Positions 4,001-28,232 of a stretch of DNA of 64,000 bases are shown here, in pieces (the stretch's first letter is position 1; each line of letters starts with the position of its first letter). A program made the position numbers and the translations under genes. Source of the stretch: Saccostrea cucullata (taxonomy: Eukaryota); assembly GCF_032062105.1 (NCBI RefSeq), contig NW_026926499.1, forward strand, positions 62,001-126,000. The letters run 5' to 3'. Under the pieces are notes generated by a model, which saw only the letters and a list, made by a program, of their open reading frames with translations, was not told the DNA's origin and did not search any database.

Positions 4001-4143
4001 CAACGATAAGCGAGGAGGCAGGGATCGTTATTCCGATTCACGTACCCACTCCCGAGCTGTCCAGTGACAATGACGCGGACTGCAGCAGTGAAGGAGAGGG
4101 CGATGACGATGATGATTGGGATTTCGATCGCGATGATTTATGA
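1004..4143 (+). CDS. 3' part of an unknown gene (5' end outside window); low-complexity acidic C-terminus
   Basis: Phase-compatible GT-AG exons 1004-1103 (ASNVYRRTPSGLVNTGF...), 1482-1629, 1744-1803 and 3077-4143 (joins the 362-aa ORF at AHGVDQ..., ends DDDDDWDFDRDDL-stop). No recognisable domain. Confidence 0.75.
2361..2630. mobile_element. TA-flanked MITE (non-autonomous DNA transposon)
   Basis: Inverted termini TACTGTATAACAG ... CTGTTATACAGTA with internal GCTAAA-type subrepeats. Confidence 0.7.
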
Positions 4144-6200: not shown

Positions 6201-7004
6201 ACTGCCGATAGAAAATGCAAACTTTTACATTTACAAAGACTGGCTTGACCTTTATGATGACCTGTGGTTGTACAAATGCATTATGCATGATAAAAATTGC
6301 ATCACTTAACATTACTTTTCATGCTTCTAATACTGTAAAGTATTATAATATAACAAAACGAAAATATGACAAATGACTAGTGTTTATTGTACAAAATCAG
6401 GGTTGCAAAAGTTACAAAATGAGCAAATACATTACACTTTAGTAAAAAAGTTACAAATGTAACCATTAATTAAGTTTATAACATTTGTATAAAAACATTG
6501 GAGAGGCACTATCATTACATAGCTTTCCTCTCAAACAATGCCCTGAACAGTGATTCACTGTCTAGTACAGATTCACTCAAATCCTCCAAGTAAAAACAGC
6601 ACAATAAATTACTTCTCACACTACCATACCATTATAAACCATACATTCTTGTGATTATTGCCAGAAGTTATACCTGACATTATTCTGGCTTTGAATAAAG
6701 AAAAGATAGTTTTCTTATTTTATAGAACCCACTTACTGATCTAAACAGTGGATAAACAAACAAAAGGCCCATGGGCCAAAATGCTGACCTTAGTCACTTG
6801 GACTCTTCTGAACTTCATCACCAAATAAGATTTTTTTTCCATATATCCAATAATATGGAAAATTTATATCACATAAATTTGCCCCAGCATAACCCACACA
6901 CTCATGATTTGAATTTGAATCTTTAATACAATAGGATGCTTCCATAAACATAGAATAAAACCTTAGAGTCTCCCCTGGTTTTACCGTTAAGGGACTAATA
7001 ATAC

Positions 7005-7125
7005 ATACCCTTTTCTACATCACATACTGTATCAGCCTGAGACACCAATATCAGCCAGAGGGCCGAAGCCCGGAGGGCTGATATTGATTGATGGCTGAAG
7101 TGGTGTGGAAAAGGGTATGTTTTAG
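7005..7125. repeat. Imperfect palindromic (foldback) mini-element
   Basis: CATACCCTTTTC...CAATATCAGCC - GGGCCGAAGCCC centre - GGCTGATATTG...GAAAAGGGTATG. Confidence 0.55.
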
Positions 7126-7352
7126 TATGTTAATTATTACATACTTAGTAATAAAATGCAACACACACCAACTTGAGAAAAATACAAATGAATAATCATG
7201 CGCTGACTACATACAATTACTATGCTTCTGTATAATATATACATACAATAATTCTTAGCTTTGGTAGACATTTTAAAACATTTCATATGCTCCTTTGGCT
7301 TAAGCGAGTGTGAAACAAGTTACTGAGAATAAGGAACCTAACTAAATTTAAG

Positions 7353-7913
7353 TACTGTAAACGTGGTTATATTGACGAGTTGAAAAATTGACGATTTTTT
7401 GTTTACGAAAATTGACGAGTGTAAATTTTGACGTAATATTTAATCAAGAATTATAAATCTTTTAAATCACGGGGATACAAATAACTAAAATTTAAGTTTT
7501 GTACAGACTAGTAGTATCTACAATGTGTAAGATTGTACAAAGTATCTAATTGTGTACGATTAAAAGTGGTCAATTGCCTGAGGTGACAAAATAGCTCAAG
7601 CACGGCATGATAATTTCGCTAAGTTATGCATGCAGTATTTGATACACTAGTTCAGCTTCAATGGTTTTAAAAAATGTGATTTTATATCACTATGTTTTCA
7701 TAACTAATTGCAAAAGAAATTAACAGTAACTTTGATCTTGTTTTAATAGGGGAAAGCCAAGAAAATTAAACGGTAATATTGTACAATAGTCAATGTCTGT
7801 TGCGACGCTATATATATGATGTGAAATTTGACGAGTGTAAATTTTGACGATAAAAGAAAAATCGTCAATATAGTCAAAATTGGCACATCGTCAAAATTTC
7901 CACGTTTACAGTA
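7353..7913. mobile_element. TA-flanked MITE
   Basis: TIRs TACTGTAAACGTGG ... CCACGTTTACAGTA; subterminal TTGACGA repeats. Confidence 0.8.
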
Positions 7914-7984
7914 TTTCTATTACAATTTCCTACATAACTTTATCATTGCTAATAATATATTTCTGCTTTAAAAAAACAGAAGTT

Positions 7985-9104
7985 AACTAGGAGACTTATT
8001 GTTCACAGAACAATAAGAGGTTTTTCCACCTTTTTGAATTTTTATTTTGTTTTATATCTGCATCCTTAAAATTAAATTCAATGAATATGAAACCAAAATT
8101 GTCATAGACAATAGAAATTAAAAATGAAAAATTAAAAAAAATGAAAGGTCCTTGACCTTTAACCTTAAAAAATATTCAGGGTCAAAGGTCAAGGGTCACA
8201 ATGCAATTGACCACATGCTTCTACCACTTATAATTTTCAAGTTATAAGGTTTAATAGTAAGTACAAAGACGTTAAAGGGCGATAACTCATAAAGGGGGTC
8301 ATCAGATCCTTTCGCAGTTATACAGTGAATTTAGGCCTAAAGACAGTTAAGACATTAGTGAAGGTTTGGTGTCTCTACGGTCTACGGTTTCAGAGGAGTA
8401 GTGATAACAAGGTTTTTCGCACAAGGGGCAATAACTTTTAAAAGTGTTAATCTTAGGGGACAAGAATGAAATAAGGTCCGCTGAAGACGGAAGACCTTAA
8501 TAAAAATAGTGGAAAAGAAACCTAAGAATTGAAATAGTTTTTAGAGTACATAGTAATGATGCAAAGACATTAAGTTTATGCTGAAAGACAAAAGAGATAT
8601 AAAAAGAGCTTAATTTCTCAGTTTTGGAATGACCTTGACCTTTGACCTTTACATAAATTTCAAGGTCAAAGGTCATTGAATCTTATGCACTTGGTCCCAT
8701 GTCTCTATGACTTCTCGTTTTGAAAATTTTTAATTATTTGTAAATTTTATAAAGTTTCAGGGGCAATAACTCATAGAAAGGGTTTACGAATCCTTTGCAA
8801 TGAATAGTTTGAAAGGTCCTCTCAAGTAGTTGTAGACATTGGTGAAGGTTTCATACCTTTACTGTTTACAGTTTTGGAGGAGTAGCGATAACAAGCATTT
8901 CTTGCGTAAGGGGCAATAACTTCAAAAGGGATCAAAGATCGAATATGGGGGGTCATTTTTCGGAATAACTTTAAATATCCAGTATCATGAACTATAAAGA
9001 TTTTCGATAAGTCTTGCAGTTTCAAAACATCTCCAGAAATAAAATAATAAGAAACAGAAGCATTTCAAGAGGACTTTCCACAGAAAGGTGGAAAGACCCA
9101 ATAA
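7985..9104 (+). mobile_element. Non-autonomous Helentron (HINE-like) element with two internal ~480-bp repeats
   Basis: 5' sub-terminal motif AGGTTTTTCCAC recurs in the 3' hairpin CTTTCCACAGAAAGGTGGAAAG; two internal blocks with GACCTTGACCTT...GGTCAAAGGTCA. Confidence 0.55.
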
Positions 9105-9479
9105 GGAATTACAAAAATCCAGTCAAACTTCATTATCTCAAACCTGATGGGGCTGAGAAAAAACTTCCGAGATATCAGAGGATTCGAGATTTTAAAGGTA
9201 AAATACTTAAAAAATATGTTGTTGGGACTTCCACATCACTTCCACATATCCATGGTACATGTATTCAAGTTACCAGAGTTGGAGATACCAAAATTCAACT
9301 GTAGCTAATTTTGTTCAGAGAAAGTAAAAATTCTCTGAACAAATTTGTAGAGAGTATAAATAAAAAAGTTTTCTTTTGATAAATGGTGGACGTGATAAAC
9401 CAGTTTCTGCAACTCTGGATTTAGCACTTATTTAATTGGCCAGACTGTTTTTCTCTACATTTAGACTATCTAGATTTGG

Positions 9480-9690
9480 CCTGTCTGTTTCTTTCTGTAT
9501 TTTGATTGGTCAGTCTATTTCTTTCTGTATTTTGATCAGTCAGTGTTTCTTTCTGCATTTTGACTGGTCAGTCTGTTTCTGTATTTTTACTGGTCAGTCT
9601 GTTTCTTTCTGTATTTTGATTAGTCAATCTATTTCTTTCTGTATTTTCCATGGTCAGTCGATCAGTTTCCTCCTCCTGATTGGTGAGATA
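9480..9690. repeat. 30-bp minisatellite overlapping the distal terminal exon of the CUB-lectin gene
   Basis: Unit TTCTTTCTGTATTTTGATTGGTCAGTCTAT, about 6 copies; encodes RLTNQNTERN on the - strand. Confidence 0.85.
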
Positions 9691-9821
9691 ATTATTATTT
9701 GCTTTCCTCCGCACATGCCTACGGACACAGAAGACAAGAATCAGGATGATAAATAGAGACGCTGCCGCAGAGCCAAGAGAGACTGCCCACGGAAAGGAAT
9801 GAGACACTGTCACGGTCACCT
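9568..9821 (-). CDS. Alternative terminal exon (TM + repeat tail) of the CUB/C-type lectin receptor
   Basis: Acceptor TTTCAG; phase-1 entry matches the 36-bp exon 18858-18893; encodes hydrophobic AVSLGSAAASLFIILILVFCV followed by RRHVRRK stop-transfer. Confidence 0.65.
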
Positions 9822-10154
9822 CTGAAATCACAGGGGGTCACATCTTACTCAGTTACATACAATGTACACATTTCACAAAACAATATTCAAAGTAAGCCAT
9901 TGTCACTCATTTCTTATAACTTTACAGATAGTGGAATATACTTTGGCACCTATTGATATGTATGGTAACTTTTTTTTATGAAGAGTCTTTGAGCATCAAT
10001 GTTGATGAGTATATAGTGAATATCTTGTATATTCTCTAAAGCAATAAAGCAAAAACACTGAAAAATATTACAAGGAGAAATCATAAATTATCTAAAAATT
10101 AATGTGAAAGTTATGTATGACATTAAATGAGTGAGGGAATAATTAATATCAAAA

Positions 10155-11236
10155 TACGAGGGGTTATCAAAAAGTTCGTGGACTGAGGCTTTAAAATTAG
10201 TACTATGTACTCTGTGCTTTCAAAATTTATAGGGAACATAAAACAACACAAAAAAAAGAAATGTTGAAAATTTTAGCCTGATACGTTCATTTTTTGCCAA
10301 ATTATCATAAAATGAAAACGATATGATATGATCACCCGGCGCTGTCGTCGTTTATTTTCATGACGTCCGATAACGTCATTTTTTTCAATGTCCTCTTCTC
10401 CTACCTCATACACTTTTTTGATGAAATTCCCTGGAGCTGAGTAAGGACTTAAACCCGCCTTGTTTATATGACTTTACATACAATGTCATGAACAGTGGCC
10501 TTCAATGAATGTATATTCCAGATGGATTAATATATTTGGAGAGATCCGCACATGATTGTGCCGGCATATTTTACTTTTGGGAGTTCAATTTATACAACAC
10601 ATGATTAACGTCATTTTTGTAGGGATTGATTTTTGCACACCTTGACAGCAAATCGACATTAATTTTGTATCTCTTTACCCTCTGAATCTATTTTGACATT
10701 AAAAGACAAGTACTCTAGATGCATATTATTTCTCTGTAGCCAGTTCCAACATATTTTAGGTATATACTGATTTTTTCAGGGTCAAAATTTTATAGAATGT
10801 TGGAAACAGAAACCCCTCCCCCTTTAAACGTCATTTTCAAGGCCTCGTTTGTTTGGACATTCCGTGTAAAACTTACGATAAAATTTCATAGGACTTTCAG
10901 AATGAAGTGAAAATTTGATATTTTATAGACCAATTGTGTCCCGACACATACCTGAATTAACGGTTTTTTTTTTTGGGATGTCAAATGATCATATCAAAAG
11001 AGTTTTTCTCAGTTACACATAGGTCGAAAAAACGTCGTTTTTGAGGTTGCGCCGCCTGGGCATACCATTGCTTACAAAAACATTACTAATTTATTTAAAA
11101 ATAAAATTCATGATTTGTGGTTTATTCTTTGGATAGAAAAGATGATGCTAACTAGATATTTCAAAATTCATTGATGTACCTTAACCGGTTTTAATTTTAT
11201 GGTGCTAGTCCACGAACTTTTTGATAATCCCTCGTA
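10155..11236. mobile_element. Non-autonomous mariner-type element
   Basis: About 30-bp TIRs TACGAGGGGTTATCAAAAAGTTCGTGGACT ... AGTCCACGAACTTTTTGATAATCCCTCGTA; TA ends; no transposase ORF. Confidence 0.85.
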
Positions 11237-11669
11237 TAAATTATGCAAAATGTAATTCATTCACACAATAGCATTATGGCCTAATTTTGTTATAACAACT
11301 TTAAAACACTGCTTTAACAGAAGCATAACCACATACATTATTTATAATTATAACATATTTAACACAAAGCAAGCATAAAATACAGAAAAAGTCTACAAAA
11401 GTTTTTCTCATACAAAATGTATATTAATAGCATCAAACTAAAAATATGTTAATCAACAAACTAACCCCCTCAAAGAAAAAAATGTTCATATGTAATTCAT
11501 GTGAACAATTAACAAAACCGGATATTTCTTGACTTTCTTGCTCAATAAAAACAACAACAAAAATCAACAATCATGAAAAAAAGGAAAAAAACAATAGAAA
11601 CCATTCCTGAACAATTTTGCCACAGTGATCTTTACAATGAAGATCAGTTTCAGTAACAGGCCTGACATT

Positions 11670-12036
11670 ATTTTTTTGTGTACGTTGGTTTGGTGATGTA
11701 ATTTTTATATGTGTACATTGGTTTGGTGATGTAATCATTTTATGTGTACGTTGGTTTGGTGATGTAATCATTTTATGTGTACGACGGTTTGGTGATGTAA
11801 TTATTATATGTGTATGTTGGGTTTGGTGATGTGATTATTATATGTGTACGTTGGTTTGGTGATGTAATCATTTTCTGTGTACGATGGTTTGGTGATGTAA
11901 TTATTTTATGTGTACTTTGGTTTGGTGATGTAATTATTTTATGTGTACGATGGTTTGGTGATGTAATTATTTTATGTGTACGTAGGTTTGGTGATGTAAC
12001 TATTTTACGTGTACATAGGTTTTGTGATGTAATTAT
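11670..12036. repeat. 33-bp minisatellite (about 11 copies)
   Basis: Unit TGGTTTGGTGATGTAATTATTTTATGTGTACGA; explains the repetitive ORFs 11571-11771 and 11810-12046. Confidence 0.9.
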
Positions 12037-13344
12037 TTCTCTGTGACTCCTCGTAGGACGGTGGCAGTGAGCTCCTGTCAGGTTCTATGGAGGGTGGTCG
12101 ATATGAGGGCAGGGGCGTTTGTTCCTCGGGAGGAGCACTAGGCTCCTGGGTCCTGCTGGGTCTCCTATCTCTACTGCTAGCCTGGTACGTCTGACGTCTC
12201 TCGAGGCCCTCGCGGATTCTCCGGGCTTTTATATGTTTACATCGGCAATATATCACAGTTATTATTATGATGAGCACAATACCTCCACTGATAGATAAAA
12301 TTATCACCCAACGTAATGAAACAGGTTCAAAATCTGAAAGACAAAAGACATCCTCTAGTCCTCGAAAAAACAACTACTAGTAATTGATTGCTTGAGCTAT
12401 AGATCTTTTCTAATTCTAAAAAAAAATTTCCCTACATATTTTCACATTAAACTTTGTTCACCTCTTGTGGCCCAACCCTTTTCTCTTGGTTCATGATTTG
12501 TACACCCTTCAATCTACACAACCTGAGAATGTTTCTGTAATACTGTAGAAGTACTTTTTTCCGCGTGGTATTAATTTACACTATGTACGCGGTCACAAAT
12601 AATCCCAGGAAATTTGTCCAAGCGTACTTAATATAAATGTAAGGCATACAGAAACAAACCAGAAAATCCGCGTAATTTTCTACCTGCAGATTAAACAGAA
12701 ATTGAGATTCCGTGGAATTATGACCCCGTGGAAAAAAAGTATGTCTACAGTAATTAACATGACTTGAATCATGGTTTGGCTGTTCTTGAGAAGAAGATAA
12801 ATTTTTTCTAAATATTCCTGTGTAAAAATTAGAATACCTATTATGGCCCCACCCTTTCCCCCTGGGTTGATATTTGAACAAAAATCTGCACTTTGAAGTA
12901 GAGCTTTTCACATTTTCTTAATCACTTCCCCTTGAAAGACCTTTGAAAGAGGGCATGACCGGTCACCCTTCATTTGACATCTTTGTCGTAGGATGCTTTG
13001 TGGCATGTTTGGATAAAAAAGGCCCAGTGGTTCTTGAGAAGTCAAAAAATGTGAAAAATTTATAGATGGATGGACAGTGAGATGAATAAGTGGACACTGG
13101 ACATTAGTGGACAAAATGAGATTTTAAAAAAAGCTTACTTTACTTGAACTTTCATTCCAAGGAGTGAACATTATAGCTGAGTCTAGCTTTTGTCTGGCTC
13201 TTTTAATTTAAATGTTAATTCTCATGGCATAGTCTCAAGAATATAAACATAAATGTGTAATACAATGAAGTTATTAATCAGCCTTTACCAATTCATAAAT
13301 AGAAGGCCCGTGAATCACATCACCCACCTGAGCACTATGGCTAG

Positions 13345-13381
<37 letters not shown>

Positions 13382-14505
13382 TCTTTTGTCATATTGTTCT
13401 TGACCAGATTTCCCCCTTGTAATACATATTGTGACCCCATCCTACCCCAATGATCATAATTTACACAATTTGAAATCTACACAACCCAGGATGCTTCCAC
13501 ATAAGTTTCAGTTTTTCTGGTCTAGTGGTTCTTGAGAAGAAGATTTTCAAAGATTTTTCCTATATATTTCTATGTAAAACATTGATTCCCCATTGTGGCC
13601 CCGCCCTACCCCCGGGGGTCAGGATTTGAACAATTTAGAATCTACACTACCCCAGGGTGCTTCCACATAAGTTTCAGCTTTTCTGGCCCAGTGGTTCTTG
13701 AGAAGAAGATTTTCAAAGATTTTTCCTATATATTTCTATGTAAAACATTGATTCCCCATTGTGGCCCCGCCCTACCCCCCGGGGTCAGGATTTGAACAAT
13801 TTAGAATCTACACTACCCCAGGGTGCTTCCACATAAGTTTCAGCTTTTCTGGCCCAGTGGTTCTTGAGAAGAAGATTTTCAAAGATTTTTCCTATATATT
13901 TCTATGTAAAACTTTGATTCCCCATTGTGGCCCCGCCCTACCCCCGGGGGTCATGATTTGAACAATTTAGAATCTACACTACCCCAGGGTGCTTCCACAT
14001 CAGTTTCAGCTTTTCTGGCCCAGTGGTTCTTGAGAAGAAGATTTTCAAAGATTTTTCCTATATACATGTATTTCTATGTAAAACATTGATTCCCCATTGT
14101 GGCCCCGCCCTACCCCCGGGGGTCAGGATTTGAACAATTTAGAATCTACACTACCCCAGGGTGCTTCCAAATCAGCTTCACCTTTTCTGGCCCAGTGGTT
14201 CTTGAGAAGAAGATTTTCAAAGATTTTCCCTGTATATTTCTATGTAAAACTTTGATTCCCCATTGTGGCCCCGCCCAACCCCCGGGGGTCATGATTTGAA
14301 CAATTTAGAATTTACACTATCCCAGGGTGCTTCCACAAAAGTTTCAGCCTTATTGGCCCAGTGGTTCTTGAGAAGAAGATTTTTTAATGACCCCACCCTA
14401 TTTTTGTCTTTTCTTGATTATCTCCCCTTGTGAGGGGACTTGGCCCTTCATTTTAACAATTTAAATTCCTCTTTACCCAAGAATGCTTTGTACCAAGTTT
14501 GGTCA

Positions 14506-14542
<37 letters not shown>

Positions 14543-14600
14543 GTGAAAAGTTTACAGACGGACGGACAGACAGATGGACGGACGGACGACGGACAAAATG

Positions 14601-14649
<49 letters not shown>

Positions 14650-17241
14650 AGAAACTGTTATTGAAAAGTTTAAAGATATACCCAAGTATAAGTTTAATCT
14701 TCTATTGTGGCCCCATTCTACCTCATTCGGAGGACTTGATTTGAACAAATTTGAATTTATACTACCATAAGAGCCTTCTGTATCAATATGATTAATCAAG
14801 GCTTTCTGTTTCTGAGAAGATTTTTAAAGATATTACCTGTATATTCCTTCATAAAACCATAGACCTATAAAGCTTTGATGCCATGTTGTGATCTATGGAA
14901 AGTTTGCTTGATACTTGTCTAGTGTTTCTTGAGAGGAAGTTAGAATGTGAAAAACTTCCAGACCACTCATGGCACACTACAGCCAGACAGACGATGGTCA
15001 CCTTTTGATCAGACAAGCTCTCTTGAACTTTCAGCTCAGGAGAGCCACAAAATCGACAACTAAAAAAAGATACATGTACAAAGAAATACAACATTCTTTT
15101 GACCTCCACAACCAATGTGTACATGTACTTGCATGCAGGTACTCAGACATAATAACATGCAGTGCAAAAATGTGTTCATATTACTTAATATACAGTTTAT
15201 ACACAAGTAATAACAAGCTCTGTACATCTATTGTCATTGCAGGCAGAAGACTAGTGATACAAATACAGCAGCTAACAAGAGGCCCAGGGGCCACATCGCT
15301 CACCTGAGCAGATCGGCTCGGAAAAAAGCACAAATCAGATCAGAATTGAAAAGTTTATGGGGGGAGGGGGGCTTGAATTTTAATACTACTTGAGAATGCC
15401 TCCACATCAATACAGCATATAACTTTGCTGTTCTTGAAAAAAAGAGTTTTAAAGATTTTTTTTACATTTTGTAAAATGTACAGTGTATATACACTTCGTT
15501 ATAATTTGAATTTGATTCCCTGTTGTTTCCCTCCCTACCCCAAAGGGTCATGATTTGAACAAATTTAAATCTTCAATACATGAAGATGCTTACATGTCAA
15601 TATGGCTAAACATAGCTTTTCTGTTTTGGGGATTCCTATCGTAAAACTTTAATCCACCATTGAGACCCCAACCTACCCCTGGGGATTATGATTTGAACAA
15701 ATTATAATCTGCACTACCTGAGGATGCTTCTATAGAAATTTCACTAATCATGGCTTTGCTATTCTTGAGAAGAACATTCTTTTTAAATATATTTTAATGT
15801 AAAACTTGGATCCCCCATTGTGGCCCCACCCTATCCCTGGGGGGTTATTATTTGAACAAACTAAAATCTACACTACCTGAGAATACTTCCATAAATATCA
15901 CTAATCATGGCTTTGCAGTACTTGAGAAGATTTTAAAAGATTTCCAAACATATTCCTATGTAAAACTTTGATTGGCCATTGTGGCCCCACCCTACCCCCG
16001 GGGGTCATGATTTGAACAAACTTGATTCTACACTACCTAAGGATGATTTCACATGAGTTTCATCTTTCCTGTCTCAATGGTTCTTGAGAAGAAGATTTTT
16101 CCTATTGTGGCAGATTAGGTTTATTTACGTTTTCATAATTATTTAATCTTGATCCCAATGTAAATCGTCCATGTTTATTTTGGAAACGCCCACTTTTATC
16201 TTTCGGCCAATAAGGTTTTTTATAGTTTCTTTTGTTCCTTTTTCATATATAAAGCTATGTAACTATTAGATTGGGGAGGGAGAGAGCTGGCTTCACTATC
16301 TAAACTCTTCATATACTGGAATTGTCCCTTGTTCATCCGTCTTAATTGAATTATATTTCTTTAGGTTAGACTATATTTGGGTTAAGTTAGGCTATATTTG
16401 GGTTGGGGAAATAAGGTTTTCATATTGTGTACTATTATAACGTACTGTAAGACTGGTAATAAATTGTAAAGTCTTCTTAATCTTATTTTCTTTTATAGTT
16501 CATTACAATTTACAAATATTTCCAAGGTATAATCTAATGTAGAGGTCTTATATTCAGAAAGTCGTTTCAAAACAAATATAAACACAATGCGGAGTACAGG
16601 CTATATGAACACCAGACCTGCTACACTATATATTCCTTTGTAAAATTTTGATCGGCCATTGTGTGGCCCCACCCTACCCCCGGTGGTTATGATTTCAACA
16701 AACTTGAATCTACACTACCTGAGGATGATTTCACACGAGTTTCACCTTTCCTGTCTCAATGGTTCTTGAGAAGAAGATTTTTAAAGATTTTTCCTATATA
16801 TTCTTATGTAAAACTTTGATTGGCCATTGTGGCCCCACCCTACACCCAGGGGTCATGATTTGAACAAATCTGAATCTACACTACCTGAGGATGATTTCAT
16901 ATGAGTTTCATCTTTCCTGTCTCAATGGTTCTTGAGAAGATTTTTGAAGGTTTTTCCTTTCAACTATTATATCCCTATGTAAAACTTTGATCGGCCATTG
17001 TGGCCCCACCCTACCCCCCAGGGGTCATGATTTGAACAAACTTGAATCTACACTACCTGAGGAATCTACACTACCTGAGGATGAGTTCATATGAGTTTCA
17101 TCTTTCCTGGCCCAGTGGTTCTTGAGAAGAAGATTTTTTAAAAATGCCATTAATTTTTCACAAAATCATAATTATCTCCCCCTGCAAGAGGGCATGGCCC
17201 TTCATTTGAACAAATTTGAATCCCCTTCACCTAAGGATACT

Positions 17242-17281
<40 letters not shown>

Positions 17282-20200
17282 GAAGAAGATGAACATGTGA
17301 AAAGTTTACAACGACAACGCCAACGACAACAACGACAGACGCCGAACAAATTTTGATCAGAAAGGCTCACTTGAGCCTTCTGCTCAGGTGAGCTAAAAAG
17401 CTATATAAAATTGAATTATATGTGAACATTTTCAGAAATACAGTCAAACTTCATTATCCCTAACTTCCAAGGCTTCAAGATAATAAGGCTTAAATACGTG
17501 AAGAAAAATTTGATAGGGATTTTCAGCTCACTTCCACATATCCATGGTGTTACAGATATCAAAGTTCAAGATACTGAAATTCAACTGTATTATTTGACTG
17601 GATACTATGTTCCTAATAATTGTACACAATATTCTGTAATTTATTACATATAAAAAATACTTTAAATTAAAAAAAATTGCCTTCTGAGTAAATTAAGAAA
17701 CAATGACATGCAGAAGGTATAATGAATTGCTCTTGTTTTTTTTTTATTTGTTTAATGTCCTTTTCAAGGATTTTTCACTCATATTGAGACGCCAGCACTT
17801 GTCAGTGGAGAGCTGCAAATTTTAGACTTATGCTCAGCACTCAGGGCCATTGAGCAGAGAGGGATCTTTTTGTGTTGGCACCTATTGCAACATGAGAATT
17901 GGGTTTATATGGTCTCTTCCAAAAGGTGATTTCAACATCCCGCAGTGGGATCGAAACCGAGAGACAAGGATCAGTTCCTTACTCCTTGACTCTAGAGTAA
18001 ACACTCTAACCACTGCACCATTTGGGCAGCCACTCTATTGCATTTTTGTCTTATGAAATACATATTACAACAAATTAAGTCAAAATAAATTATTTATTGC
18101 GTCTTATCTCATTGAAAAGTCCCTTTCTAAAAAAAATCTGACCAAAAATCAATTCTTGGCTTGTAATCACATGCACCACTGCAACAGCATGGAATAAAAG
18201 CAAAAACAGGTTTCTTGATAACCTCTCACAAAAAAGTTAGAAAATAATGTGTTCAGTACTCAAAAATTTTATTCAACTTCAATTTTAAAAGAAAAATAAG
18301 CTCCCTTCCCCACCCTGTATATAACCCCACCCCCTGTGCAGCAATTCCAGACAAAAATATTTTTACTTAAAGTATAAAAAGCTTCATTTTCTAAAAAAAA
18401 AAATTGAATATGTCCAATATATTGTAATTATTGTACTGAAGGGAAAAGTTAGGGTTAAGGGTTAATACCAAGTACCAAATACATGTCTATCTAATGATAC
18501 ATCTATATACATAGTAAGTATTTAATGCTTTCACTAGGAAACGTTAACCCAGTCAATTCAAATGATATATACAATATCTCAAAGAAGAATGAAATATACA
18601 TCATCAATGCTTACTGCAGATAATTAAAGGTATACATGTATTTATAGATAATATACTAAGAGAAAATGAAAATGAACCTTTTCCAAATTTCTAAACATTA
18701 GATGTTGTAAAAATGAGGTAAAATCTCCCTAAAGCTGGAGTATATATGCAAGGAATACATACAGTAAGTTAGTGTTTTATGTGCAATGAACACATACTAT
18801 AAGAGTGCATGTTTATATGAAAGCTTTATACATGTATCCAGATTTATCAATACTTACCAGCTTTGTCTATCGCTTCTGGTACCTTAAATACATCTGTTTC
18901 TTTCACTTAAAAAAAAATATATATAAACATAATTTTCTCTAATCTTGCAGGGGACACAATGAGCAAAGTACAGTAAATAATATGCATTGATATACTTTGA
19001 ATCTGCCCCTACTTTGAATCTGCCCCATAAAAATTTTATGCATATCCTAGCAAACGATTCACGAAAGGATACATTGTAATGAGACATTAGGGTATATTTA
19101 CATGCATGAAAATTGCCTTTATAATTTAGTGATTAACCCCCTCCGCCTTTCAAATTTCAACTTTTAAAGAAAAATATATGCTCTTATGCTGCAATCATCA
19201 TTCTTTTCTGCCGTGAAAGATTTTTTCCCTTGATAATAAACTACTACCGGGTAGTATTTAATTTGATTTTATTTAGTAGTTTCATAAATTTTCTATCGGC
19301 ACAATAGCATTTTCTTCTCTAAATCAATCAGTTCCCATATAGATTTAGACCGACATGCTGACCTTTGTGTCTTTGGCAAGCGAAGGGGAACTTGTCCCTG
19401 CTGCAGTACTTAAACGTCCACTTCTGAGTCTGTGTGTCATGGATAACACAGTCCTTGGTTTCTGTCTCTGACGATGTGTCAAGTCTACAAGCACGAATGA
19501 TAACTTTAATTCTGATTATTCTTTAAAAGCATCTTCTCAGGTTCTGAAGAAACATGTTATAAAAAATGAAGAAACATGTCATAAAATGTTTAAATTTAAA
19601 CACAAAACATAAAGCACTAAAATAATGCTAATTTTTAAGAAAGTCTTCAAAGAAGTTATGAACAAGGTGCTACCAAATGGTATTAATAGGAATGTTGATC
19701 TAAGAATTTAAACAGTTACAATTGCTATAAAGTAAGTTTCCCTCATGCCTTACCTGTTTTGTAGATACCCTGTTGTGCCACTGATCCATTTGATTGCGTT
19801 TTCCACCTCAATGTCATTCAGACCAATCCATACGTTACTCACAGACATGTTGACAGCATAGGCTATAGGAGATAACAAATATTAAAATAAGATTCTATTT
19901 CATACAATAACACAACAAAACATGCACAAATTTGTAGACTGACTTTTATGTTAATTCCACCATCATATAAAATTTGAAAAATTTAGGGGGCATACACTGG
20001 ATTGAATGAGTAAAGGTTTGAACTCAGAATATTTATCTATTTTTTTTTCCAATTTTTATGACAAATTCCACAGTTAAAACCGTTATAAGGACCAAAATAA
20101 ATTTCTACTTTAAGTTCATGTAACTATTTTTGAAGACCTTTGCATTTTTTTGACAAGTGAAGGGAACGTGCTAAGTTTTCATAAAAATTACCAAATATTC

Positions 20201-22327
20201 TTCAATAAAAGGTGAAAGTAAAAAACTTACAAGAGATTGTAAGATTGACAAACTATGATCAGAAAAGCTCACTTGTGCATTTGGTTCTGCCAGTCAAGAA
20301 AAACTTGTCCATACCTTGAAATGCTGTGAAAATGTCTTCCGTTGGCAATATAATCAGGTTAGATAGACTGTATCCACAGTACTCCTGAGCATTAGACCAC
20401 GTCAAGCCATCGACTGGCTGGGTCATGATCTTGTAGCATTCTAAGGGAGATAACTCCTTCCAGTCTGGTGGACATGAGGTATTTCCTAAGAAAAACAAAG
20501 GAGACTCTCTTCACTTAATTATGCATTGCTTTAGCATGTTTTAATACTTTTTTCAATAAATACTGTAAATTCCTTATTTTTCGCGAAATAGCTCTTTAAC
20601 GTCAAATCATGAGAATAATTATTCGCGAATGAACGATTGATGGGGACAATTTACATGGAATCTAGCAACATAAAAATAAAAGCGAGTAACTTAATTTCAC
20701 ATTTAATGCTTCTCGTGAAATTACGCGATAATTAATTCCTCGCTAATTTTTAGGAATCTACAGTAATTGAAGTTCACTATATCTCTTACCAAATGCCTCA
20801 AATTGAAGTATTATGCCTGAATATTGATAGAAATTTTTGTCATTTGTTGAAAATCTCAGATACACATGCTGCCCCTTGCTAGTGACCTCATATGGATTAA
20901 AGTATCCACATATGGACACAAGGACTTCAGAGCTAGCTGTCTCTCCTACAATCAAATATGTATACAGTATTCGATTTGTTAATGAATTCAAAACAATTTA
21001 ACTTAGAAAAACTTTTAAGAATCACTATAATTGAGTGAAAAACTAGGATAGATAGTTTTACTATTGTCCTATGGTTTCTTTGTAAAAATCCCTCCAAAAA
21101 TATGACTGTTAAAACTACTGAATGAAAAATATTTTATTTACAAAATTTTAGAGTATTTGATGATATTACCCCAATTACAAAATTAATAAATCTAATAAGC
21201 ACTCATCAGCTTCTTCATATAAGAGGTTATCTATCTGTGATCTCTCAAAAACTGACCCACTGTCTAACCCCCTCCCCCTCCCCCCAAAAAAAGACTCCTT
21301 GAATGAACATTCAGTATTCAAAAATGCTTTTGACATTCATGCGCGAATTATCAAGCAATTCATTGGCTTGATCACATCATAAAACAAAAACTACTAGACA
21401 TTTATTCATTTTATAAACACTCCCTGCCTAGGATAAAGAGATAACACTCCCTGTCTAGGATAAAGATATCCCTAAATAAAAACTTACCATCTAGTATAAA
21501 GAGGCTATCCCTGGTATAACAAGAAGTGTACGGAGGTGTGTACTCTAAAACTGAGGATAAAATTCGAAAGTGTAGCTTGTTTCCTGATCCTGCGTTAATT
21601 TTCCAGGAGCAGTCCACATTGTTGTCATAGCTACTGGCACCTGAGGCCAGTGTGCGAATCGTCCCTGAAGTCACTCCATCAATGTTCACTGTTTGTTTAT
21701 CCTCACAGTAATAGGTTGTTGCTAATGCTGTTGGTGAGAATTTGGAAAAAGATTACAAATCTTTAAATAAACATTAAAGATACCAACAATGTCCACTTCC
21801 TGCAATAAATCAAATGCAATGAAATCTTAAAATAAAAGTAAAAATAAATCTGAGGTCCTATTTTTCCTTTTTTCTATGAATAAAATTATAGCTACCCATA
21901 TTAGCAAACTGGATAGAAAAAAAATCCATCTAAAGAAACTGTAGAGCTATGGGCCTTATTTTCTGACCAGAAGCATCTTTTGTCAATATTGCAGCTTACG
22001 CCTTTCTCTATAAGTTTTTGACCCTTTGGTTGGTGAACGTAATATGATAAAACATGATACAGTGAACACACTTATAACAAATTGACAATTACAAGGTAAT
22101 AATTTTCACTCCCTGTGACTTTATAACAAATGATATACTTAAAGGATATAAACTGCCAATCCCTGAAACTTTAATATAAGCATGTTTTACCATATATTCA
22201 CTTTGCGGTTAAATTACCGGTGAACATATTTCAATCTTCTAATAAAAAAGACTGTTGCCTTTGACTTACCTTTGCAAATAAAAAATGATATGTAAACTGT
22301 AAAATGTAGAGGGCAAGACAGCTTCAT
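12005..22327 (-). CDS. Single-pass receptor: signal peptide - CUB - C-type lectin - TM - PY-motif tail (~406 aa)
   Basis: Exons 22270-22327 (MKLSCPLHF...), 21488-21727 and 20790-20945 (CUB: YDNNVDCSWKI, C..DSLFILDG, ICG, VYLRFSTND), 20315-20485, 19754-19862, 19363-19484 (CTLD: CPPDW, CY, TWSNAQEYC, WIGLND, DCV, FAC), 18858-18893, 12005-12333 (TM, LPSY/PPSY). All phases compatible. Probable non-coding exon ~24406-24480. Confidence 0.85.
13345..14643 (+). mobile_element. Non-autonomous Helentron carrying a 166-bp Cg170-like satellite array
   Basis: 5' AACAAGAGGCCCATGGGCCACATCGCTCACCTGA, about 5-6 tandem 166-bp units (ORF starts 13595 and 13761), GACG/GACA microsatellite, 3' hairpin GCTCACTTGAGCCTTCGGCTCAGGTGAGC followed by A-run. 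Confidence 0.85.
15274..17396 (+). mobile_element. Second Helentron with ~166-bp satellite array, interrupted by a solo LTR
   Basis: Same 5' motif and 3' hairpin as 13345-14643; more diverged satellite units; ACG/ACA microsatellite near 3' end. Confidence 0.8.
16106..16625 (+). mobile_element. Solo LTR (520 bp), Gypsy-like
   Basis: TGTGGCAG ... CTGCTACA termini; 4-bp TSD CTAT (16102-16105 and 16626-16629); CCAAT, TATA-like and AATAAA motifs in order on + strand. Confidence 0.75.
17745..18031 (-). mobile_element. tRNA-derived SINE (Deu/Nin-type), diverged copy
   Basis: Colinear with the 42700-43002 copy; A and B boxes on - strand. Confidence 0.7.
20561..20765. mobile_element. TA-flanked MITE
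   Basis: TACTGTAAATTCCT ... AGGAATCTACAGTA inverted termini. Confidence 0.7.
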
Positions 22328-22377
22328 AGTTAGCTCAGCATCTGTAAAAAATATAGAATGAATAAAATAATATAATA

Positions 22378-23234
22378 CAGGTGACTCTCAATCTCTCGAA
22401 CATCAAGGGACCGCAAGAAAAGTTCGAGAGATCGAAGGGTTCGAGAGATAGAAATTAAATTAATAAAATCCGGAATTTGCCGTTCCGATCACTGATGTTA
22501 TTCTACTATTATAGATACCAAAAGTATATGTAAATAGAGTTATTGCACGTTTTCAATTGTATTTTACATTGTTACAGGTAATATACTTGATATCAAGTTT
22601 CAATATTTATATGTTCTTATTTCAAGATAACATGAAACCAGAATAGCAATTGTCGGTTTCGCTATTCTGCGGCTTGATCGGGTCCTTCACCAGACTGAGT
22701 GTTCACCAGATTTCTCTTAATTAATCGGTATTCAGTCCTTGAGAAAGGAATTTCTTGTGCAATATTTGCCATACTGGGATTATGTACACTCTGATAAAAG
22801 TTCGTAGTCTATGGGAACTTTTTGAAGCGATAGTCTATAAATTTATTTTCTAAAAATTATCGTCTCGGTTTCAAGTCAAAATAAGTTGTGAATTTGTTTA
22901 TAATTTACCAATAATAACCAATTAATTATACCAACACAAGGACGACCCACAGGTATAGTGTTACCTATGTAAACACCAAATATAATTTTGCTTTCAGGTA
23001 AACCATGCTGCAAAAACTTACACGGCATGTATACACACGCAATCAAAACTTCAATAGATAGAGAGTAAAATTCAATAAAATATGTGTAACGCAAATCCCA
23101 GGTTTTCAATCAAGAGAAAGAACTTGAGAGACGAAGTTAGAGATTCATAAATTTTTAATATATATACACTGGTATAATAAAACACTTGATTACCCCTTTT
23201 GAGTTCAACATGGTGACCCATTGAGAGTCACCTG
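22378..23234. mobile_element. Pogo/Tc1-type non-autonomous element
   Basis: TA|CAGGTGACTCTCAA ... TTGAGAGTCACCTG|TA. Confidence 0.75.
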
Positions 23235-24602
23235 TATCATAATATGAATTACTTAGCTATTGCACTTTTAAAAACAATTGTTTAAACACAGTGAATAATG
23301 CAGATACCTACACTATTTAAATCTTAACTTAAAGCTATGATTTAAAAACTTGTGTAAAAATTCAGTGATTCATGTACAGTGGAGCCTCATTTATCCTGAC
23401 GCTTTGGTTCCTAGTTAATTTGTCCGGATATGTGAAGCGTCCGGATACCCGAATCACCAGTTAAACAAAACAATGTAATATTTAAAACTTGTGTAAAAAT
23501 TCAGTGATTCATGTATATATATAGGTCATTATAAAAAAAATTGTAGACAATTTTAACTTCACTTCTTCATATCTAATGAAAAGAAATTGGAGATCAACCT
23601 ATTATCAAATGAAAAATAATTTCTTTTGTTGACAAGTGCAGTTTAACTCAATTTGATAAAAAGAAACCCATCTTACTTTATTTTAAATTCAACATGCAGG
23701 TTTGCCACATTAAGGCACACACAGTAATATTGTACAGTGAATTAAACTTGTCTAATTTTGCCACCTGGCACCACTGGTTCCAAAGATATATTGGCTGAAT
23801 TGGACAAATTCTGGACTGAAATCACTAAAAGGAACCTGAAATTTTTGTTGTATTAGACAAGATTTCAGAATACACAACATAGGGATTAGACAAGTTTCAC
23901 ATTTCTTAAAAATATATACTTCCAATCTGTATAAATTTCACAGTATTTCGCTCATTACAAATGCTACCTGAATTGACTATTAATCTAATCTGTTTATTGT
24001 TCAAGTAGCACAATTAGTTCAAATTTTTAGGTGAAAGTCAGTACTAATTTCCTAATTTCTTGCCATATATGATCTTTTGCAATTGATTTCTGTTTAACAA
24101 GTCAACTATTAGACACATATGATGTATTGTTTATAAATTACTAAATTCTGACGTTCATTTTTAAAATAATTATGAAATTTATCGTATCATACTAGAACGA
24201 TTTAGCTGAAATTATTCGGGTTCATCGAATACAGATAATGTCAAGCAAAAAAAAAAAAAAAAAAACAACAACAACAAACAAACTGTAATCCTGGGAAGAA
24301 AAATGTTAAGGTACAGTTTTAATTCATCAAGATATTCGACACAGATCTTTCAACCAAATTTCAACCAAATACTCCTTTAATATACACGCCCATATTTCTA
24401 TATACCTTGAAAACGAAGAATATGTTCTTCTCTATCCTTCTATTTCGCAATGTTTATCCTCAATGAGTTTTCTCACCTCCACAAACAGGAGAGGGCAGAA
24501 CAAGAGCGTGTTGACATCCGGTCTGGGTTGCCAGGAAGCAAGGTTGTAGACTAGCAGACTTTAAAATATACCCTTTAGTGCTTCCCTATATTTTAAAGAA
24601 CA

Positions 24603-26439
24603 ATGTCAAAAGGAGCAATGGACCCCTCTACCTTCCAGGCTCTAATTGATAAGATCCATCAGGTAAAGTCACGAGATTTTACGCGTTTCTATGGTAAACA
24701 ATCAGCTGTCAAAATATGCAAACGTTAAGAATATGTCAAAGTGAGAAATTTATTCAGCAATGACATTTAAATAATGTACATTTGTTAATCTATATCTTTT
24801 GGAATCTTTAAATAAATAGAAATTGAATGAATAATCGATGTACATTAAACATGTAATTACTGCATTTCTCTCTAGTAACTCTCACAATGATTTCCCATTT
24901 TCCTCAAAGAGAAATAAGATTTTATAACTGAGACGTATAATGTTTTGAAAATCTTGACAGGAAACAACATCTTCTGAGAAAAAGGTGGAAATTCTTTATA
25001 GCTGTCGAGGATTTTATAATGCAGATCAGGTAATATAATTTTTTTTTCTAAGATGCTTTCTGTAAAAGTCAAAATCCTCTTCATAAAGATAAAACAATAA
25101 AACTATTTTTTAGGCTTCTCGACTGCTTAGTTCCTTTGCCAACCCTGCTGACAAAATCAGAGTACTTCGAATTCTGGAGCCAGTAAGTCAAATGTCTAGT
25201 GAGATTTTGTTAACTATTGATTCTCGATGTAATTTAAAAACTAATCTAATAGTAAAATCTTGTTATTATGAACTTCAACTGGAGAAAATTGAAAAAAAAA
25301 CATCAATATATTTGAGGATTTTATAAATACCTTCAAGAAAATGTGGTTAAAACTTTGACATATCCATGGTTATTTGAGATACATGTACCTTTGTTTGAAA
25401 TACTTAGTTCTTAACTTTGCAGTTTATTTAACTTTTGAATCTATTTCCAGCGATTGTGTCAAATGACCTGTCGGGATGGAAGGGAGATAATTAATGCTGT
25501 CAGCATTCACAATGATAAACTTATTGCCTTAGATTGCATTAAGAGGTGAGAACCAACAAAAGTACCTGTCAATTTATTGTACTTTAAAGAAGAGACATAG
25601 AATATGATAGAAGATATTAATTCATTTGTTTCACCTGAAAATAACTACTCTCCAACTGCTACAGTAAAGCAGGCAGAAGAAACCTATAATGCCTGCTTTA
25701 TCCTATTTTCTTCAGAGTACTTTCGGACTACCAAAGTAAACTGGGTGAGGAGTACATCCTGAGTGCCTTCCCATTTGAAAATGACAAACTTAGGGCAATG
25801 CAAATATTGCAAACAGTGAGTATATCTCTTTCTCAACATTAATAAAACAAGCAAGCATTTATTTGTCTTCCTGTGTACATTACTTCATTCTTTTATAGGT
25901 CAACTCATTTGTTGGAGACCATGTGGCTGCGGGAGGACACCAGGGCTATGCAGCCTTAGGAGGCCTGTATACACAAGCCCGCCCCATGGTGCCTCATCTT
26001 TATGGACCTGTGACTGACCAGGCAAAATTAATACCTGTAAGTTATCAGAAAATTTATTTCTATGGGAAGTTTTATTTGAAATTTCAGTTTTCTATATACA
26101 GTTGTAAGTTATTGAAATCTATCAATTTTCTCATCCACATAAAGAATGTGTAATTCTTAAAAATAATGTATAATTACAAAACTTGTGATTTTTTTGATTT
26201 AGGGTCATGGTAAAATAGAAATTCCTCCAGAAGCCCAGCCTGGTGTTGTTCCTTCTATCTACACTGGTCATCCGTCTTATGCCTACCCCCCAGACAGGAG
26301 TTATGATGAGGACAGGGGCTACCCAGGGAACTCAGACCTAGGCCAGACTCTACCGGGGGATTACCCCAAAGGAGCCCCTCCTCTGGGATATCACAGCGGG
26401 GCCCCAAATCCCACTGGCTTCTTAAAACTGGAGTCATAA
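24603..26439 (+). CDS. DUF4476 (PROSER1 N-terminal-like) protein with Pro/Gly/Tyr-rich tail (~255 aa)
   Basis: Seven phase-compatible exons 24603-24662, 24961-25029, 25114-25182, 25451-25545, 25716-25815, 25899-26036, 26203-26439. MDPSTFQALIDKIHQ...GFYNADQASRLLSSF...DKIRVLRILEP...NDKLIALDCI resembles the recalled PROSER1 N-terminus. Mostly missed by the ORF track because the exons are short. Confidence 0.75.
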
Positions 26440-27993: not shown

Positions 27994-28197
27994 TCAGAAT
28001 ATTGGGATGTAGCTGTCTATCTTTGCCCTATGTCTCTGGGCCACACACTCAGCTATCCAGATAATGTTTCTGTTCTCTTGCTCCTTTAGTTTGACGTAGG
28101 CATAAAACACTCCAAACTGAAACTGCTGCATGAAGGAGTTCTTCATGAATTTTACCTGAAATAAAATTACTTATTTAAAAAGCATCTCTTGAAACAT

Positions 28198-28232
<35 letters not shown>

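What the first reader, a model, noticed from the sequence alone, without database searches (positions are those of the whole stretch)
9568..12333. CUB/C-type-lectin receptor appears to swap between two unrelated TM + cytoplasmic modules
Seen: after the 36-bp stalk exon (18858-18893, phase 1) there are two TTTCAG acceptors, both entering in phase 1. Each is followed by a TM helix, a basic stop-transfer patch and a stop codon. Exon A (12005-12333) has LPSY and PPSY motifs; exon B (9568-9821) has a different TM and an RLTNQNTERN repeat tail with no PY motif. Established: PPxY/LPxY motifs bind WW domains of NEDD4-family ligases. Inference: alternative last-exon choice gives one ectodomain in a ubiquitin-regulated form and a PY-less, possibly stable or decoy form, which would be a switch on a putative pattern-recognition receptor.
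Basis: partly seen in the sequence, partly recalled or inferred. Interest (0 to 1): 0.7.

Follow-up and report, generated by a model that had tools for sequence, protein, structure and literature searches.

The report
Ancient two-tail oyster membrane receptor gene
This single-copy oyster gene for a CUB/lectin-like surface protein has two alternative final exons, each giving its own membrane anchor and inner tail, as in the gene models of other oysters and mussels; both tails carry a PPxY motif there, but here the second tail has lost it and would likely escape ubiquitin-driven removal if it is spliced.

Summary
The two-exon anatomy is real. One single-copy gene (signal peptide, CUB, C-type lectin-like domain, stalk) has two phase-1 terminal exons, A (12333-12005) and B (9821-9568). 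Named database models carry both forms in two Crassostrea/Magallana and four Mytilus species, so the choice is old and already annotated there.

Four corrections:
(1) The stalk exon is 48 bp (18905-18858), not 36 bp.
(2) "PY-less B" is not the conserved design: B tails of 6 of 6 other named species end in a PY motif. Here a 30-nt repeat expansion with 4- and 2-nt slips stopped B early, leaving the old end as a relic (9446-9378).
(3) A and B look like old duplicates, not unrelated modules.
(4) The lectin domain lacks EPN/QPD and WND, so sugar-binding pattern recognition is unsupported.

Splicing into B is not shown for this lineage: reads from a close relative cross 9821 unspliced. Yet B shows 13 synonymous versus 6 replacement changes (pN/pS 0.14), so it is likely still translated somewhere. 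It works like LAMP2 exon 9A/B/C. Verdict: a new member of a known kind, with a lineage-specific twist.

The parts
22270..22327 (-). first coding exon (signal peptide), ends phase 1
   Evidence: identical to P0007 N-terminus
21488..21727 (-). exon 2, CUB domain first half
   Evidence: joined to exon 3 in an X1 contig (record 7)
20790..20945 (-). exon 3, CUB domain second half
20315..20485 (-). exon 4, C-type lectin-like domain start
19754..19862 (-). exon 5, lectin-like domain (WIGL motif)
19363..19484 (-). exon 6, lectin-like domain end; TSS and WTF stand where EPN/QPD and WND would be
   Evidence: contig piece
18858..18905 (-). 48-bp stalk exon, the common phase-1 donor for A and B (not 36 bp)
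12005..12333 (-). terminal exon A: TM about 12307-12251, PSAP 12142-12131, LPSY 12112-12101, PPSY 12064-12053, stop 12007-12005
   Evidence: 100% to P0007; X1 contig piece ends at 12333
11667..12038 (-). 33-nt tandem array (11 copies) made from the last codons and stop of exon A; lies in the 3' UTR
10157..11234 (.). 1.08-kb insertion with 28-bp inverted ends flanked by TA; holds the only AATAAA/ATTAAA sites between A's stop and B's acceptor
   Evidence: Tc1/mariner-type label recalled
9568..9821 (-). terminal exon B: TM about 9780-9724, basic patch, EEETDRL motif, 2.6 repeat units, early stop 9570-9568, no PY
9476..9659 (-). 30-nt tandem array (units 30, 30, 26, 28, 30, 30 nt); the 26-nt unit shifts the frame and makes B's stop
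9378..9446 (-). stranded relic of the ancestral B tail end (SLAN*ISAKSRVAETGLSRPPFI), with an internal stop and PPF instead of PPxY
   Evidence: read against Crassostrea B tails

Best explanation
The gene encodes a CUB + C-type-lectin-like type I membrane protein whose final TM-plus-tail exon was likely duplicated before oysters and mussels split, so that one splice donor (18858) likely chooses the near acceptor A by default or the far acceptor B as a minor form, giving one ectodomain two anchors that would sort differently inside the cell.

Shown: the gene structure, single copy, both forms in named models of six other species, PY motifs on both tails there, loss of PY from B here, and coding constraint on B.

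Inferred: duplication origin; A as the major form; the two acceptors probably sharing one long terminal unit, so that B sits unspliced in A's 3' UTR when A is chosen; PPxY/PSAP recruiting NEDD4-type ligases and ESCRT-I to send the protein and its cargo to lysosomes.

In this lineage a 30-nt repeat expansion and frameshift cut off B's PY end, so a B form here would be PY-less. That is a derived accident that selection has tolerated, not the original reason for the switch.
For: Single locus for the protein and for each exon. A and B isoforms named under one gene in C. gigas, C. virginica, M. californianus, M. edulis, M. galloprovincialis and M. trossulus. Logan protein P0001 is a full ectodomain+B frame on a 1602-base contig, which needs splicing. 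PY in 33 of 33 A tails, 13 of 14 B tails and 3 of 3 single-form tails among the 50 proteins of 200 aa or more then held (many are alleles; the exception P0003 has a newer model P0002 with PPTY). PY in 15 of 16 distant family members examined. Profile scores: oyster A-mussel A 72.0, oyster B-mussel B 34.3 (tail-driven: E.DRL/EETPRL, NTE, PSYDxxMG), oyster A-oyster B 37.8; each above 40 of 40 segment-wise shuffles. B versus organism A reads: 13 synonymous and 6 replacement changes, pN/pS 0.14, binomial p 4.6e-5; TM part 8 versus 2. No change listed at B's acceptor or stop. No AATAAA/ATTAAA between A's stop and B's acceptor outside the insertion. Depth after A is 0.9-1.9 against 0-0.04 in a unique intron-7 bin.
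Against: No splice into 9821 was seen: no loose-end row there (listing needs 3 reads), 8 of 8 (X22) and 6 of 6 (X23) reads covering 9838 were aligned in the intron, and both contigs (X2, X8) run through. The two Saccostrea models retrieved are A only, and no Saccostrea B protein was among 6 hits. About a third of X22 reads show another 4-nt loss in B's repeat (7 of 21), so tail length is loosely held, or this is a register artefact. Oyster A scores higher against mussel B (41.4) than oyster B does (34.3), so B-B orthology rests on the tail motifs; profiles are shallow and the shuffles also destroy features generic to TM proteins. The intron depth control is confounded by divergence at the 92% cut-off, and the libraries look unstranded. 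No binding or trafficking was tested.
Confidence: 0.7

Rival explanations
1. One reading: the switch exists to toggle a NEDD4-regulated receptor (A) against a PY-less stable or decoy form (B) of a pattern-recognition receptor.
For: In this genome B truly lacks PY and A has PSAP, LPSY and PPSY. Reads of a relative list no change at the early stop, and B's shortened frame is under purifying selection.
Against: B tails carry PY in 6 of 6 other named species, and mussel B even carries PSAPPSY. The lectin domain lacks EPN/QPD and WND here and in 13 of 13 distant homologues where the segment could be cut out (3 more could not be cut). The gene is single-copy and conserved to annelids and nemerteans, unlike the expanded bivalve lectin repertoires described in the abstract of PMC10140915.
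Confidence: 0.12
2. B is a recently silenced exon in this lineage: it is now only part of A's long 3' UTR, and its synonymous bias is left over from past function.
For: Only unspliced reads and contigs across 9821 in 4 of 4 runs. A-only Saccostrea models. The tail is broken by repeats and stops. Nucleotide divergence of B (19/254) is not significantly below the adjacent intron (26/250, Fisher p 0.28; the intron count is partly inferred from contig totals).
Against: The changes between this genome and organism A arose after they split, and 13 of 19 are synonymous where about 24% of sites are. Neither contig shows an indel in B's 254 bases, against several in the flanking intron. Tissue of the runs is unknown and under half of each raw run was read.
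Confidence: 0.15
3. B belongs to another gene or is a chance reading frame.
For: It lies 9 kb from the donor, beyond A's stop codon.
Against: All 6 database hits to B are CUB+Lectin_C proteins with this ectodomain. B is single-copy. No other minus-strand ectodomain exons were recognised between A and B.
Confidence: 0.02

Closest known systems
LAMP2A/B/C (alternative last exon 9)
   Same: One luminal/extracellular part; alternative last exons each encode a distinct TM and cytoplasmic tail (PMC10549195, passages read).
   Different: Unrelated ectodomain (CUB+CTLD versus LAMP domains); tails are 50-100 residues with PPxY/PSAP instead of short GYxxZ-type ends; two exons, not three; no function tested here.
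Database isoform pairs of the orthologues: C. gigas LOC105329838 X1/X2, C. virginica LOC111137971 X1/X2, Mytilus LOC127700880, LOC143078693, LOC134720573
   Same: Same gene, same junction point after the 16-residue stalk, same two exon types.
   Different: Their B tails keep a PY motif; the B form is not among the Saccostrea models retrieved, and here it is PY-less.
PPxY/PSAP-bearing single-pass membrane adaptors (WBP1, LITAF, PMEPA1, PRRG types; names recalled)
   Same: Disordered tail with P[ST]AP and terminal PPxY-acidic motif; weak sub-threshold Pfam WBP-1 hit for exon A (E 0.015). PPxY binds NEDD4-family WW domains and P(S/T)AP binds Tsg101 (PMC6874086, passages read).
   Different: Large CUB+CTLD ectodomain and an exon switch; binding untested.
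Sugar-binding C-type lectin receptors (mannose receptor family; bivalve CTL receptors)
   Same: Lectin_C domain above the Pfam cut-off; best PDB lectin hits are MRC1/MRC2 domains.
   Different: No EPN/QPD or WND; one CTLD plus one CUB; single copy. The database name 'C-type mannose receptor 2' is an automatic label.
Arthropod Dscam1 exon 17 (alternative TM exons)
   Same: Alternative exons supply the TM segment (abstract start of PMC8042237 lists the exon 17 cluster; TM role recalled).
   Different: Internal mutually exclusive exons with a shared downstream tail, not terminal exons.

Membership tests
Alternative terminal TM+tail exon switch (LAMP2 type) | Two or more same-phase acceptors after one donor, each with its own TM, tail and stop | tested here: met
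Alternative terminal TM+tail exon switch (LAMP2 type) | Both junctions occur in transcripts of orthologues | tested here: met
   named X1/X2-type models in six species and Logan full-length A and B frames; read support behind the named models not seen
Alternative terminal TM+tail exon switch (LAMP2 type) | Both junctions occur in this lineage's RNA | tested here: inconclusive
   A: identical named model and a contig piece ending at 12333. B: no junction seen in 4 runs of a relative, but purifying selection
Alternative terminal TM+tail exon switch (LAMP2 type) | Tissue- or state-specific choice with different function | not testable with these tools
   run tissues are not given; no functional assay
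Lophotrochozoan CUB-CTLD-TM-PY protein family (unnamed) | Signal peptide, CUB, CTLD, stalk, one TM | tested here: met
   Pfam CUB 44.2 and Lectin_C 44.3 bits, above cut-offs; CUB fold matches; full-length single-stretch homologues
Lophotrochozoan CUB-CTLD-TM-PY protein family (unnamed) | C-terminal [LP]PxY motif | tested here: met
   met by form A; absent from form B of this genome only
Ca2+-dependent sugar-binding C-type lectin (pattern-recognition receptor) | C-type lectin-like domain with WIGL core and conserved cysteines | tested here: met
Ca2+-dependent sugar-binding C-type lectin (pattern-recognition receptor) | EPN/QPD and WND motifs of Ca site 2 (motif definition recalled) | tested here: not met
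   TSS and WTF at those positions; absent in 13 of 13 distant homologues that could be cut
Ca2+-dependent sugar-binding C-type lectin (pattern-recognition receptor) | Binding of microbes or sugars | not testable with these tools
   needs an assay
NEDD4/ESCRT-regulated membrane proteins | Cytoplasmic PPxY/LPxY, with or without P[ST]AP | tested here: met
   form A; not form B here
NEDD4/ESCRT-regulated membrane proteins | WW-domain binding and ubiquitination | not tested
   no binding prediction or assay run

The most novel reading that the evidence does not exclude
An exon pair kept since the oyster-mussel ancestor has, in Saccostrea only, been turned by a 30-nt repeat expansion into a true ubiquitin on/off switch: a rare, tissue-restricted PY-less B form that stays at the surface and is still under purifying selection. 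That would be a natural experiment, with PY-bearing B in Crassostrea and Mytilus as controls, for how a tandem repeat rewires receptor trafficking.
Probability: 0.3. Interest if true: 0.6.

Novelty: new member of a known kind. Interest (0 to 1): 0.38.

Why it matters
An alternative TM+tail exon pair kept in both oysters and mussels (a split of several hundred million years, date recalled) implies two selected trafficking fates for an unstudied, single-copy lophotrochozoan surface protein. The mechanism class is textbook (LAMP2) and the isoforms already sit in automatic annotations of other species, which caps the surprise. What this work adds: the conservation of both exons across orders, the family-wide PSAP/PPxY tail, and a traceable loss of PY from B in one genus with the old tail end still readable downstream. 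It also shows that exon B is missing from the Saccostrea models retrieved.

Tried and rejected
Read laying over 6300-23300 was swamped by intronic repeats: 15 of 587 joints were shown, none a splice junction of this gene, so it gave only depth, variants and contig pieces. The second lay covered B alone, so the A junction was not counted in reads and no A:B ratio could be measured.

AlphaFold on a 13-sequence alignment gave mean pLDDT 57. The CUB domain was confident; the lectin domain was mostly under 50, so no structural test of the sugar site was possible, and the fold search returned only CUB matches among the listed rows.

The ESM Atlas gave only leads under 0.9 (CUB/Lectin_C clusters).

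An intron inside B's repeat that would rejoin the relic PY end was looked for. The only joints seen (9465-9522, 9465-9606) have 15 letters between and non-splice ends, so they are indels.

A 36-bp stalk alternative was rejected: 0 of 47 homologues.

Paper searches: LOC105329838, 0 papers; CUB domain + C-type lectin + transmembrane + oyster + alternative splicing, 0. Searches listed 20 of 80, 15 of 32 and 7 of 7 papers; none has a title or abstract start about this gene. Subscription papers and supplements were not searched, so expression data may exist in tables I did not see.

Earlier scan findings: none. No complex prediction was run. Whether scallops and other molluscs also have two exons was not tested; only single forms were retrieved.

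Full report
Gene structure. The minus strand carries seven coding exons from 22327 to 18858, all with GT-AG ends, followed by two phase-1 acceptors at 12333 (A) and 9821 (B). The A form is identical over 410 residues to a named Saccostrea cucullata protein, P0007. That protein shows the stalk exon to be 48 bp, starting at 18905; 47 of 47 homologues printed have the same 16-residue stalk, and that acceptor has the stronger pyrimidine tract. Pfam gives CUB and Lectin_C above cut-off. The protein, exon A and exon B each match only this locus in the genome (such counts are lower bounds).

Exon B is a conserved part of this gene. A search with B's frame alone returned 6 proteins among 86 candidates, all CUB+Lectin_C, 61-71% identical; five are named isoform X2 of the C. 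gigas or C. virginica gene. Their X1 partners carry exon A. One unnamed Logan protein has the whole ectodomain joined to B on a 1602-base contig, which implies a spliced transcript. Four Mytilus species also have two forms that diverge at the same point. Mussel A matches oyster A clearly (profile probability 97.7). Mussel B matches oyster B through tail motifs (83.8), though oyster A also matches mussel B (92.6), so the B-B pairing is likely rather than proven.

The modules are probably old duplicates. Oyster A and B profiles align over the TM (W..L..GG..LIII..[YF]C) with score 37.8, above 40 of 40 shuffles that keep a TM of the same make-up in place (mean 16.9), and in other species both end in PPxY plus acidic residues. 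The control also destroys ordering common to many TM proteins, so this is suggestive only.

PY-less B is a local loss. Among the 50 proteins of 200 aa or more held, PY occurs in 33 of 33 A tails, 13 of 14 B tails and 3 of 3 single-form tails; many rows are alleles. The one exception has a newer model with PPTY. I picked 16 of the near-full-length single-stretch hits among the 150 listed (leaving out multi-domain repeats, two short fragments and three proteins already held); 15 have PY and 9 have P[ST]AP. Named ones come from scallops, Solemya, abalone, a nemertean, Mactra and Dreissena. In the window the segment coding RLTxxNTERN has expanded to about six units of 30, 30, 26, 28, 30 and 30 nt; the 26-nt unit shifts the frame into the stop at 9570-9568. 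Downstream, 9446-9378 still reads SLAN*ISAKSRVAETGLSRPPFI, which lines up by eye with RLANQRRASNSKETGFSNSPPSY of C. gigas B. Reads of organism A list no change at the stop or at the 26- and 28-nt units (28 lower-support rows were not shown), so this is unlikely to be an assembly error.

RNA evidence, for and against. The runs come from coded organism A, about 92-95% identical in exons, tissue unknown, and the libraries look unstranded. An X1 contig joins exons 2 and 3, and another lies on A up to 12333 with 39 further letters not shown. Over B, two raw runs and two contig sets show transcription but no splice at 9821: no loose-end row, 8 of 8 and 6 of 6 reads at 9838 aligned in the intron, and contigs spanning 9522-10071 and 9522-10120. 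One or two spliced reads per run would fall below the listing limit. Against a dead exon: the 19 differences in B's coding part are 13 synonymous and 6 replacement (pN/pS 0.14, p 4.6e-5; 8 versus 2 in the TM part). I read this as B being a minor or tissue-restricted form. Its unspliced presence fits a long A 3' UTR: outside a 1.08-kb insertion there is no AATAAA or ATTAAA between A's stop and B's acceptor, and the bin after A has depth 0.9-1.9 against 0-0.04 in a unique intron bin. Pre-mRNA, or divergence hiding intron reads, is not excluded.

Likely function. PPxY binds WW domains of NEDD4-family ligases and P(S/T)AP binds Tsg101 (PMC6874086, passages seen). Their family-wide presence suggests a surface protein cleared or sorted through ubiquitin and ESCRT; this is inference. 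The lectin domain has TSS and WTF where EPN/QPD and WND would lie (motif roles recalled), so a protein ligand is more likely than a sugar. A single conserved copy also sits poorly with the expanded bivalve lectin repertoires (PMC10140915, abstract start and passages seen). Since both tails had PY, the ancestral switch would have changed TM, juxtamembrane and sorting sequences, not ubiquitin control as such. Only in this lineage would B lack it.

Comparison and verdict. The arrangement works like LAMP2, whose alternative exon 9 gives different TM and cytosolic tails (PMC10549195, passages seen). It is not a LAMP, and it fails the sugar-site test for a classical lectin receptor. No paper on this gene was found; supplements and subscription journals were not searched. 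The isoform pair is already in automatic annotations of other bivalves. New member of a known kind; interest 0.38.

Noticed in passing
window 11667-12038 (-) and 9476-9659 (-): Both terminal exons end in a tandem array grown from their own last codons (33-nt NYITKPxYT* units for A, 30-nt RLTxxNTERN units for B). A's array includes its stop, so the protein is unharmed; B's array displaced the tail end.
   Followed up: partly
window 10157-11234: 1.08-kb element with 28-bp inverted ends (1 mismatch) and TA flanks between A and B; it brings AATAAA sites at 11126, 11095 and 10356 that could create a new poly(A) site favouring A.
   Followed up: partly
window 9602 (run X22): 7 of 21 reads lack 4 bases one repeat unit earlier in B's tail; possibly an allele with a tail 10 residues shorter, or a register artefact.
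   Followed up: no
window 6388-6885: Unique-looking RNA reads (depth about 6-16) lie just before a minus-strand AATAAA at 6388; this may be the far 3' end of this gene or of the convergent plus-strand gene whose last large frame ends at 4143.
   Followed up: no
window 27994-30370 (-): Last exons of a V-ATPase subunit d (AC39) gene upstream (Pfam PF01992, E 1.5e-12).
   Followed up: partly
window about 24300-26439 (+): Possible small plus-strand gene, head-to-head with this one, ending in a Pro/Gly/Tyr-rich frame (26203-26439); no Pfam match for four frames tried.
   Followed up: partly
window 12540-18100: Intron 7 is packed with copies of a 166-168-nt unit repeat and related short elements that draw thousands of RNA reads from elsewhere in the genome.
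   Followed up: no
P0055/P0056 versus P0040/P0057: Mytilus trossulus has two gene ids for this protein (LOC134720573, LOC134720580); a duplicate or haplotype copy.
   Followed up: no
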